From: Escherichia phage BAU.Micro_ELP-22
Strand: one strand, 5' to 3'
Sequence record: OR699282.2
Length of the DNA stretch: 64,000 nt
Shown: positions 51,845 through 52,582 of the stretch, one piece after another
Numbering within the stretch: the stretch's first letter is position 1
Layout of the letters: each line of letters begins with the position of its first letter
Program-made: the position numbers and the translations under genes
The notes under the pieces: generated by a model
Told to the model about the DNA's origin: nothing
Databases searched by the model: none
Seen by the model: the letters and a program-made list of their open reading frames with translations, nothing else

Positions 51845-52582
51845 TTAGACTGAATTGTTAGGATAATATCTCCCACGTCCCCATATTATTCGCACAGCAC
51901 CACCACCAGCAGCCGTATAAGAAAAATTATCCCATATACTACCACCACCACCATACATCTTACCAGCACCACCACTACCAGCACCACCATTATATGAACC
52001 ATCGTATCTACCGCCAATACCATTAGCACCTTGAACAATAATACCAGTACCACCACCCGTACCAATGAACGAGGTATTATAGAATGCACCACCACCACCG
52101 CCGCCGCCAGCACCATTTTCACCAGTGATTGCATCTCCGTTACCACCTTTACCAGTGTAGCCACCAGCACCACCACCAATGACTGCACCACCACTTACAC
52201 CAGTATTGCCACCATTACCACCACCATCATTAATAGCGTTAGCAGCTTTTCCACCTAGTCCACCAACCGTATATGCACCAGTGAAGCTAACACATAGTTT
52301 TTCAGTTCCACGATATAAACCGTTTTCAACTGGTGTAGTAGTGTTGGTATGCGTAAGAGAAACACTTAAGTACTCACCACTAGTAACCGGAATATTATTA
52401 CGCCACGATAAGCCGCCACCAGCACCACGTTGACCACCCGGCGAAATAACACATACTGATATTTCGGTAACGCCAGCAGGAACTGTAAATTGTGTTGTTC
52501 CTATTGTCGTGATTAATTGTTCACCATGTGGCTTATATTCAATTTCATTCCCGTACTTAATCATTCTTCCAAAAGGTAACAT
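51845..52582 (-). CDS. glycine-rich protein with the same N-terminal leader (paralog 6 of 11)
   Basis: Starts MLPFGRMIKYGN; body is GGxGG-rich low complexity. Confidence 0.65.
   Translation of the reverse strand: MLPFGRMIKYGNEIEYKPHGEQLITTIGTTQFTVPAGVTEISVCVISPGGQRGAGGGLSWRNNIPVTSGEYLSVSLTHTNTTTPVENGLYRGTEKLCVSFTGAYTVGGLGGKAANAINDGGGNGGNTGVSGGAVIGGGAGGYTGKGGNGDAITGENGAGGGGGGGAFYNTSFIGTGGGTGIIVQGANGIGGRYDGSYNGGAGSGGAGKMYGGGGSIWDNFSYTAAGGGAVRIIWGRGRYYPNNSV

What the first reader, a model, noticed from the sequence alone, without database searches (positions are those of the whole stretch)
51845..52582. Glycine-rich member of the leader family
This paralog keeps the MLPFGRMIKYGN leader and the conserved upstream cassette but replaces the propeller with a ~200-aa GGxGG/GGAGG low-complexity body. 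The opposite strand gives long spurious ORFs for the same reason. It shows the leader is a portable module attachable to unrelated bodies.
Basis: seen in the sequence. Interest (0 to 1): 0.4.

Follow-up and report, generated by a model that had tools for sequence, protein, structure and literature searches.

The report
Leader-tagged glycine-rich virion protein
This is a real gene of a giant E. coli phage that joins a 12-residue tag, shared with its neighbours, to a well-folded glycine-rich domain of the type found on phage tail-fibre tips; the same tag marks many unrelated sugar-binding-type proteins found in the particles of related giant phages.

Summary
ORF 51845-52582 (minus strand, 245 aa, = phage 121Q gp243) starts with MLPFGRMIKYGN and sits between two copies of the conserved terminator-promoter-RBS cassette of a ten-gene RCC1 array in an Asteriusvirus jumbo phage.

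The portable-leader idea is supported and extended. In CBB, GAP32, Serratia phage BF and uncultured relatives, the same MLPF leader heads RCC1, Kelch, RCC1+Kelch, Laminin_G_3 and glycine-rich bodies. In CBB, eight of these proteins were found in virions by mass spectrometry, including the glycine-rich CBB_144. A protein annotated "PE-PGRS family protein", the name given to the glycine-rich genes there, was also detected in Eneladusvirus particles.

My best reading, which is inferred, is that the leader is a virion-docking peptide presenting interchangeable adhesin heads. The main rival is a T4-like capsid-targeting signal.

The gene is absent from about half of the Asteriusvirus records. In phAPEC6 it is mis-annotated as an out-of-frame ORF.

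The parts
51845..52582 (-). Coding sequence of the 245-aa glycine-rich leader protein (ortholog of 121Q gp243), stop codon included
   Evidence: It is 94-98% identical in 16 Escherichia phage records and 85% in a 17th.
52547..52582 (-). Leader, codons 1-12: MLPFGRMIKYGN
   Evidence: Residues 1-8 have pLDDT below 50, both in this protein and in an RCC1 paralog.
52523..52546 (-). Linker, residues 13-20 (EIEYKPHG). Similarity to the RCC1 neighbours ends exactly after codon 12.
52268..52522 (-). Residues 21-105: beta-strand-rich first half of the TNF-like sandwich (14% Gly), carrying the conserved FTVPxGVT and LSWRNNIPV motifs
51848..52267 (-). Residues 106-245: glycine-rich loops (39% Gly) with the conserved GGGAGGY-G-GG core, closed by the C-terminal strand AVRIIWG
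52587..52614 (-). Conserved block TAAATATAGTATAATGAATAAAGGAGGG: Shine-Dalgarno AAGGAGGG at 52587-52594 and a TATAAT -10-like element at 52600-52605 with no -35. Promoter activity is inferred.
52619..52648 (-). Hairpin AGCCAGTAC-AAA-GTACTGGCT plus T-run: terminator of the upstream RCC1 gene and the 5' part of the cassette
51809..51839 (-). Hairpin plus T-run directly after the stop codon: terminator of this gene and start of the next cassette
51886..52194 (-). Spurious 102-aa valine-rich out-of-frame ORF. Its counterpart is annotated as gp004 in phAPEC6.
52031..52433 (+). Two spurious opposite-strand ORFs (52031-52258, 75 aa, T-rich; 52179-52433, 84 aa, P-rich) produced by the GGT-rich coding strand
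45788..58628 (-). The whole leader array: nine RCC1 genes, this gene, and a frameshifted eleventh gene starting at 46940

Best explanation
The ORF is a genuine gene of an Asteriusvirus jumbo phage (121Q / phAPEC6 / G17 group), probably expressed late. Its product has two modules. Module 1 is a 12-residue N-terminal leader, MLPFGRMIKYGN, which is flexible and not part of the fold. Module 2 is a compact TNF-like beta-sandwich whose loops form a glycine-rich lattice, the same domain that forms the receptor-binding end of the cyanophage Pam3 tail fibre and the 'brush' of mycobacteriophage tail tips. I propose that the leader is a virion-incorporation (docking) peptide. It would plug this head, and the RCC1 heads encoded by the neighbouring genes, into a common acceptor site on the particle. 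The most plausible site is the hair-like appendages described on phAPEC6 and CBB, so that the array supplies a set of interchangeable host-surface-binding heads. The shared cassette (terminator hairpin, promoter-like block, strong RBS, leader) makes each gene its own expression unit and gives about 110 bp of homology on each side, which would allow bodies to be swapped in and out by recombination. Shown here: the gene is real and conserved; its fold; the sharp leader/body boundary; the leader on at least five unrelated folds in four or more phage lineages; and virion association of leader proteins in relatives, including glycine-rich ones. Inferred: that the leader docks rather than targets to the capsid interior; an external location; a receptor-binding role; late expression; and recombination at the cassettes.
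For: Real gene. It is 94-98% identical in 16 Escherichia phage records and 85% in a 17th, and has its own SD, -10-like element and terminator. An exhaustive HMMER scan finds 370 representative clusters at E<=1e-3 and 76 at E<=1e-10.

Leader is a separate module. It is predicted to be unstructured in both the glycine-rich protein and an RCC1 paralog. Identity is about 90% in codons 1-12 and 43% in codons 13-24.

Portability. The leader is found on RCC1, Kelch, RCC1+Kelch, Laminin_G_3, glycine-rich and unclassified bodies. A degenerate DNA scan of IMG/VR hit seven contigs, six of them 348-378 kb (121Q, CBB, Serratia phage BF, a 358,663-bp contig I take to be GAP32, and two uncultured); the seventh hit, in a 24-kb contig, is a 12-codon ORF and probably chance.

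Protein-level selection. The CBB gene for CBB_144 (annotated gp144) keeps MLPF....YGN with different codons and has no cassette.

Virion association. CBB_144 (glycine-rich; 5 peptides, 34% coverage) and seven other leader proteins of CBB were found by MS of virions (PMC5259590 Table 4; N-termini). A protein annotated 'PE-PGRS family protein', the name given to the MLPFPIIS-headed glycine-rich genes of the Eneladusvirus array, was found by LC-MS/MS of particles (PMC7760394). Eight RCC1 proteins of phAPEC6 are in its virion proteome; six of them lie in the fetched array and start with the leader, and two (gp549, gp551) lie outside the fetched stretch (PMC7247149 Table 1).

Precedent. A 29-aa N-terminal conserved peptide docks the second receptor-binding protein of Klebsiella phage KP32 and accepts foreign bodies (PMC13352976). 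CBB hairs end in 'tiny terminal globular structures', and five of the six CBB structural proteins that have no gene in GAP32 carry the leader (PMC5259590).
Against: There is no direct evidence for this protein in Asteriusvirus particles. The phAPEC6 record annotates only the out-of-frame ORF, so the true product was probably missing from the MS search database (my inference, not checked).

No acceptor protein has been identified. The location of any leader protein, outside or inside the capsid, is unknown. GAP32 is not reported to have hairs yet encodes leader proteins.

Unlike Pam3 gp24, the protein has no trimerising helix and no adjacent chaperone gene.

The target itself does not reach any Pfam threshold.

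Some lineages use a variant leader, MLPFPIIS.T, without YGN. A single acceptor site is therefore not guaranteed.
Confidence: 0.55

Rival explanations
1. The leader is a capsid-targeting sequence like that of the T4 internal proteins. On this reading, leader proteins are packed into the prohead (inner body) and ejected with the DNA, and the array is a hypervariable internal-protein locus.
For: These phages have a T4-type 'prohead core scaffold and protease' and an inner body (PMC7247149). T4 internal proteins share a ~10-residue N-terminal targeting sequence ahead of unrelated bodies, in variable loci (established knowledge, not tested here). Several CBB and uncultured leaders have L/I-x-E at positions 7-9 (RLFE, RLVE, RLIE, IINE), which resembles a T4 gp21 cleavage site. 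MS shows presence in particles, not position.
Against: Position 9 is K, N or R in all ten Asteriusvirus leaders and Q, K or A in several CBB leaders, so no cleavage motif is conserved. Every identified body is a lectin or adhesin-type fold, and the glycine-rich one is otherwise known from fibre tips. In other organisms the same body ends long multidomain proteins.
Confidence: 0.2
2. The leader has no function as a peptide. It is conserved only because the first 36 nt belong to a DNA-level regulatory and recombination cassette that is homogenised by gene conversion or needed for translation initiation.
For: Within the window the leader codons are almost identical at the nucleotide level, with the same codon choices, and are continuous with the ~90% identical upstream cassette.
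Against: The peptide MLPF....Y[GA]N is kept in CBB, GAP32, BF and uncultured contigs with different codons and different upstream DNA, including the lone CBB_144 gene, which has no cassette. Two gene pairs in the window lack the hairpin-promoter part of the cassette but keep the leader.
Confidence: 0.08
3. The protein is a non-structural DNA-condensation or host-takeover factor, as the 'DNA condensation protein' annotation of its neighbours suggests, and its detection in relatives' particles is contamination.
For: The neighbours are annotated as regulator of chromosome condensation or DNA condensation proteins. The phAPEC6 authors speculated on a role in ordering DNA. Peptide counts for RCC1 proteins in phAPEC6 are low, at 1-5.
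Against: The annotation rests only on the RCC1 repeat fold. The glycine-rich body has no DNA-binding relatives. Leader proteins were detected in three independent virion proteomes, with up to 50% coverage in CBB.
Confidence: 0.05
4. The ORF is a chance open frame in GC-rich repetitive DNA and not a gene.
For: Glycine-codon runs keep several frames open.
Against: The sequence is conserved, it has hundreds of homologs, the model is confident, it has its own expression signals, and homologs have been detected by MS.
Confidence: 0.01

Closest known systems
Pfam PF21722 (Gly_rich_2) stand-alone glycine-rich domain proteins of phages and bacteria
   Same: They share the length (~250 aa), the framing motifs (FTVPxGVT... 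and ...GAVRIIWG-GR-FP) and the central GGGAGGY-G-GG core. phmmer gives E about 1e-16 to PF21722-bearing proteins, and 22 of 81 aligned relatives hit the model.
   Different: The target itself does not reach any Pfam threshold. It carries the MLPF leader in place of the N-termini seen in most relatives; many of the closest ones begin M[LI]E[LM]L.
Cyanophage Pam3 tail fibre gp24 (PDB 7YPX); related: S16 gp38 adhesin and T4-like gp38
   Different: Pam3 gp24 has an N-terminal trimerising alpha-helical domain that docks to the baseplate, and a dedicated chaperone, gp25. Here there are only 12 residues plus a short linker, with no helix and no adjacent chaperone gene.
Mycobacteriophage Bxb1 tail wing brush gp33 and tail spike gp29 (PDB 9D93), the 'brush' or polyglycine-rich domains
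   Different: The phage type and host are different. How they attach could not be compared, because the paper is not held.
ALK/LTK glycine-rich domain (PDB 7LIR, 7LRZ, 7NX3, 7LS0)
   Different: It is a eukaryotic receptor ectodomain that binds a cytokine. Sequence identity is only 15-19%.
Conserved N-terminal docking peptide of the second receptor-binding protein of Klebsiella phages KP32, K11 and KP34
   Same: It is a short N-terminal peptide that is necessary for virion incorporation and can carry a foreign body (PMC13352976). This is the mechanism proposed here.
   Different: It is 29 residues, belongs to podoviruses, and serves one secondary protein, not a family of 10 or more. Its partner, a T4 gp10-like branching domain, is known; no partner is known here. 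Sequence relatedness was not tested.
T4 capsid-targeting sequence of internal proteins, and the mobile promoter/stem-loop cassettes of T4-type hyperplastic regions (from established knowledge, not tested here)
   Same: A ~10-residue N-terminal tag is shared by unrelated bodies, and variable genes are flanked by repeated stem-loop plus promoter cassettes that favour modular shuffling.
   Different: No conserved protease site follows the leader. The bodies are adhesin-type folds. The cassette here also includes the RBS and the leader codons.

Membership tests
PF21722 Gly_rich_2 | Match to the Pfam HMM at or above the gathering score | tested here: not met
   No Pfam family at E<=0.1 for the target, and none at E<=0.01.
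PF21722 Gly_rich_2 | Significant sequence homology to proteins that do match the model | tested here: met
   phmmer E 2e-16 to 3.7e-16 to P0037-P0039, which carry PF21722. 22 of 81 aligned relatives match PF21722, best E 3.5e-11.
PF21722 Gly_rich_2 | Conserved framing strands and the GGGAGGY core across the full domain | tested here: met
   Invariant P35, V66, G121, G137, A139, G141, Y142, G211, W234 and P241 in 81 sequences.
TNF-like + polyglycine fibre-tip fold (Pam3 gp24 / Bxb1 brush / ALK GRD) | Beta-sandwich with a glycine-rich loop lattice in a confident model, with specific structural matches | tested here: met
Pam3-type tail fibre | N-terminal trimerising alpha-helical docking domain | tested here: not met
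   No helix before residue 111. Residues 1-19 have no secondary structure.
Pam3-type tail fibre | Adjacent fibre-assembly chaperone gene | tested here: not met
   Both neighbours are RCC1 leader genes. The rest of the genome was not searched.
Pam3-type tail fibre | Homotrimer that binds a host receptor | not testable with these tools
   Only single-chain prediction is available, and there is no binding assay.
RCC1 leader array of Asteriusvirus | Shared 12-residue leader and upstream cassette | tested here: met
RCC1 leader array of Asteriusvirus | RCC1 beta-propeller body | tested here: not met
   No RCC1 Pfam hit. No BLASTP hit to any of the nine RCC1 bodies.
T4-type capsid-targeting sequence proteins | Conserved protease site (L/I-x-E) at the end of the leader | tested here: not met
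   Position 9 is K, N or R in all ten window leaders, and variable (E, Q, K, A) in CBB.
T4-type capsid-targeting sequence proteins | Location inside the capsid and removal of the leader on maturation | not testable with these tools
   The published MS tables give only peptide counts.
KP32-type docking-peptide receptor-binding proteins | Short conserved N-terminal peptide ahead of interchangeable bodies | tested here: met
KP32-type docking-peptide receptor-binding proteins | Identified partner (branching) domain on a primary fibre protein, with the peptide required for incorporation | not tested
   No partner search was possible without multimer prediction. This needs experiment.

The most novel reading that the evidence does not exclude
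MLPF....YGN is a general virion-addressing tag of the Rak2-like jumbo phages (Asteriusvirus, Mimasvirus, Eneladusvirus and uncultured relatives). It would dock a changeable repertoire of small lectin-like heads (RCC1, Kelch, Laminin-G, glycine-rich) onto the unexplained hair-like fibres of these particles. The cassette-flanked array would then be a combinatorial adhesin library, and the 12-residue tag a ready-made handle for displaying foreign proteins on jumbo phages.
Probability: 0.35. Interest if true: 0.72.

Novelty: new variant of a known kind. Interest (0 to 1): 0.5.

Why it matters
It gives a fold and a probable role (virion-borne, adhesin-type) to a protein annotated as hypothetical in every Asteriusvirus record seen here, and called 'PE-PGRS family protein' in Eneladusvirus.

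It corrects an annotation in phAPEC6 that probably kept the protein out of the published virion proteome.

It recasts the 'DNA condensation' RCC1 array as one instance of a larger family defined by its leader. Most members tested by proteomics are particle components. That provides named candidates, and a simple test (delete or transplant the 12-residue tag), for the unexplained hairs of CBB and phAPEC6. It also offers a possible display tag for engineering jumbo phages.

Tried and rejected
- Direct scans of the target found nothing: Pfam and NCBIfam and a sequence search of PDB. PHROGs gave only an unnamed family (phrog_4474).
- A literature search for the leader sequence found no phage paper. 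A search for structural work on Rak2-like virions found nothing that places RCC1 or leader proteins.
- The sigma-70 promoter scan was not enriched (56 found against 62.5 expected). The promoter class is therefore left as an inference.
- The context of the PVP-SE1 homolog (a lone gene among replication genes) and of a ~150-kb Plesiomonas-associated phage contig (near lysis and terminase genes) did not inform function.
- The phiTE structure paper does not mention a glycine-rich protein. The Sharanji paper has no proteomics. The Bxb1 and Cambillau-Goulet papers are not held. The phAPEC6 supplements are not held.
- The search for related loci with the family alignment failed for lack of a conserved 7-10 column stretch.
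- Global pairwise identity of bodies was uninformative: about 28% both between RCC1 bodies and between the glycine-rich body and RCC1 bodies. I replaced it with BLASTP E-values.
- Window versus 121Q shows 5 synonymous and 8 non-synonymous codon differences, too few for a selection test.

Full report
**Identity of the window.** The region is 95-98% identical to Escherichia jumbo phages of the genus Asteriusvirus, including 121Q, phAPEC6, G17, UB, SP27 and Sharanji. The finding's ORF, 51845..52582 on the minus strand (245 aa), is the ortholog of 121Q gp243, annotated 'hypothetical protein'.

**The array.** The ORF lies inside a minus-strand array from 45788 to 58628. Ten intact genes there begin MLPF[AG]RM..Y[GA]N. 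An eleventh, starting at 46940, has a degenerate leader and is frameshifted after about 74 codons. Nine of the ten intact genes encode RCC1-type beta-propellers (Pfam WD40_RLD/RCC1, phrog_4219).

**Checking the observation: leader and cassette.**
- The 36-nt leader pattern occurs ten times in the window, always at an ORF start, against zero expected in shuffles.
- Between most genes lies a cassette: stop codon, hairpin GCCAGTAC-loop-GTACTGGC, T-run, TAAATATAGTATAATGAATAAAGGAGGG, 3-4 nt, then ATG.
- Hairpin terminator-like sites number 17 against 5.6 +/- 2.5 expected.
- The upstream 72 nt are about 90% identical among six genes. Codons 1-12 are about 90% identical among all ten. Codons 13-24 drop to 43%, so the boundary is sharp.
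- In the target, similarity to the neighbours ends exactly after Asn12. The next cassette begins a few bases after the stop codon.
- With the leader removed, the nine RCC1 bodies all detect each other by BLASTP (E 1e-55 to 4e-3). The glycine-rich body detects none of them.

So the leader, the cassette and the unrelated body are real.

**Checking the observation: 'low complexity'.** This part of the description does not hold.
- Glycine is 29% overall, but 14% in residues 13-105 and 39% in residues 106-245.
- Tandem Repeats Finder sees only weak, short repeats.
- The opposite strand gives ORFs of 75 and 84 aa. The longest spurious ORF (102 aa, valine-rich) is on the same strand, out of frame.
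- In phAPEC6 that out-of-frame ORF is what is annotated as gp004, although the true 245/250-aa frame is intact there.

**What the body is: sequence.**
- A word-indexed search found 198 relatives, and an exhaustive HMMER scan found 370 representative clusters at E<=1e-3, 76 of them at E<=1e-10.
- Most relatives are stand-alone proteins of about 250 aa with a conserved architecture: FTVPxGVT..., LSWRNNIPVTPGE, GGGAGGYxGxGG...GAVRIIWGxGRxFP. Invariant non-glycine positions are P35, V66, A139, Y142, W234 and P241.
- The target itself reaches no Pfam threshold. However, 22 of 81 aligned relatives match PF21722 (Gly_rich_2), and phmmer E-values to such proteins are about 1e-16.

**What the body is: structure.**
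- With this alignment, AlphaFold2 gives a confident single domain (pLDDT 92.8, pTM 0.89). Only residues 1-8 fall below 50.
- Foldseek against viral models finds 'glycine-rich domain-containing proteins' of many phages. One is the 'PE-PGRS family protein' of Erwinia phage pEa_SNUABM_47 (TM 0.75).
- In Pam3 gp24 the N-terminal helices dock the fibre to the baseplate, and the TNF-like plus glycine-rich part is proposed to recognise the host (PMC9608196).
- The same body also ends long proteins, including a 1013-aa protein with RCC1 propellers (49% identical body) and a 1552-aa protein with three Laminin_G_3 domains.

The body is therefore a known, folded, fibre-tip-type domain. It is not collagen-like, a beta-roll or disordered.

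**The leader outside this phage.**
- In Pectobacterium phage CBB (Mimasvirus), the homolog CBB_144 (annotated gp144 in the record) begins MLPFSPLIVYGN. It uses different codons and lies alone between nrdD and nrdG.
- Nine more CBB genes begin MLPF[PSAT][RI]...Y[GA]N: three Kelch propellers, Laminin_G_3 proteins and ~220-aa bodies with no Pfam match.
- A degenerate DNA scan of IMG/VR for the leader hit seven contigs. Six are 348-378 kb: 121Q, CBB, Serratia phage BF, a 358,663-bp contig that I take to be GAP32, and two uncultured contigs. The seventh hit, in a 24-kb contig, is a 12-codon ORF and probably chance. Bodies there include RCC1, Kelch, a 667-aa RCC1+Kelch fusion, a weak Laminin_G_3 match and unclassified folds.
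- In Serratia phage BF and the Erwinia Eneladusviruses, a variant leader MLPFPIIS.T heads an array where RCC1 genes alternate with two glycine-rich genes. One of those is annotated 'PE-PGRS family protein'.
- A metagenomic contig carries tandem Laminin_G_3, 69-aa and glycine-rich genes with MFPLPII / MLPFPII leaders.
- An AlphaFold model of an RCC1 paralog (pLDDT 76.7, shallow alignment) also leaves the leader unstructured.

Portability is thus well supported. The peptide is conserved at the protein level where the DNA cassette is absent.

**Virion association.**
- CBB virion MS detected CBB_144 (5 peptides, 34% coverage) and also CBB_536, 537, 548, 549, 551, 552 and 553 (PMC5259590 Table 4). 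All eight start with the leader.
- Five of the six CBB structural proteins that have no gene in GAP32 are leader proteins. The authors expected the genes for the tail hairs to be among such proteins, and they describe tiny terminal globules on the hairs.
- LC-MS/MS of Eneladusvirus particles detected a 'PE-PGRS family protein' (PMC7760394).
- The phAPEC6 virion proteome contains eight RCC1 proteins. Six (gp003, 005, 006, 007, 009, 010) lie in the fetched array and begin with the leader. The other two (gp549, gp551) lie outside the stretch I fetched, so I did not check their N-termini (PMC7247149).
- phAPEC6 also has hairy appendages on the tail and capsid.
- The target itself has not been shown in particles. 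In phAPEC6 the mis-annotation probably kept it out of the search database (inference).

**Mechanism.** My preferred reading (confidence 0.55) is that the leader is a docking peptide presenting interchangeable adhesin-type heads on the particle, with the cassettes acting as expression units and as recombination handles. A direct precedent is the 29-residue N-terminal conserved peptide of the second receptor-binding protein of Klebsiella phage KP32. That peptide is required for incorporation and can carry a foreign enzyme (PMC13352976).

**Rival readings.**
- The main rival (0.2) is a T4-style capsid-targeting sequence. Some CBB leaders do contain L/I-x-E, but that position is K, N or R throughout Asteriusvirus, so no cleavage site is conserved.
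- Conservation at the DNA level only (0.08) is contradicted by CBB_144.
- A DNA-condensation role (0.05) rests only on the RCC1 name.

**Distribution and novelty.** The gene is present in 17 Escherichia phage records and absent from the others that share the cassette, for example PBECO4, whose array is annotated as ten RCC1 genes. It is therefore an accessory member of the array.

The fold and domain family are known. The leader as a tag shared by five or more unrelated folds of particle proteins in Rak2-like jumbo phages was not found in the literature held here. I rate the finding as a new variant of a known kind, with interest 0.5.

Noticed in passing
phAPEC6 record MK817115.1 7716-8018 (L001:9188-9490, minus); window equivalent 51886-52194 (minus): phAPEC6 gp004 is the out-of-frame valine-rich ORF inside the glycine-rich gene. 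The true 245/250-aa ORF is intact but not annotated, so it was probably missing from the published virion-proteome search.
   Followed up: yes
window 45788-46940 (minus): An eleventh array gene begins MLPFGRIITSSK (leader without YGN), stops after about 74 codons and continues in the +1 frame as an RCC1 body. It is split the same way in 121Q (gp235/gp234). It could be a pseudogene or a programmed frameshift.
   Followed up: partly
window 58732-63935 (plus): About 25 tandem paralogs of ~60 aa (MN.HKE[FY]Y..LP...), starting right after the leader array. They match 121Q gp249-261.
   Followed up: no
window 42323-45103 (plus): A run of eight back-to-back ORFs of 104-141 aa, possibly another paralog array.
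   Followed up: no
window 49373/49385 and 56236/56245 (minus): Two gene junctions lack the hairpin-promoter part of the cassette. The upstream stop codon TAG overlaps the Shine-Dalgarno (TAGGAGGGAA..ATG), which suggests two-gene operons inside the array.
   Followed up: partly
protein P0002 (Logan contig, 26.7 kb): A 96%-identical ortholog reads MNKGG|NKIEYKP.... The leader is removed exactly, consistent with deletion between GGGAAT repeats, and about 27 residues of the glycine-rich part are also missing. It may be a natural leaderless variant or an assembly artefact.
   Followed up: no
proteins P0005-P0035, P0058 (PVP-SE1 gp19), P0122; locus L006:8134-10744: Many stand-alone glycine-rich relatives from other phages begin M[LIF]E[LM][LM].... 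So does a 1013-aa RCC1-RCC1-glycine-rich fusion (MFELLSVG), and a gene upstream of the glycine-rich gene in L006 begins MNEMMIVS. This may be a second, analogous leader type.
   Followed up: partly
L026:799-5992 (Serratia phage BF, record about 347.3-352.5 kb): An array alternating RCC1 and glycine-rich genes, all headed by MLPFPIIS.T. The same genome also has MLPF...YGN-type leaders elsewhere (L013), so two leader variants coexist in one phage.
   Followed up: partly
L004:21797-27065 (CBB, record 350196-355464): CBB has a seven-gene minus-strand block mixing Kelch, Laminin_G_3 and unclassified ~220-aa leader genes next to the terminal repeat. It sits at the same genome end as GAP32 genes 001/002 and seems to be the counterpart of the Asteriusvirus RCC1 array.
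   Followed up: partly
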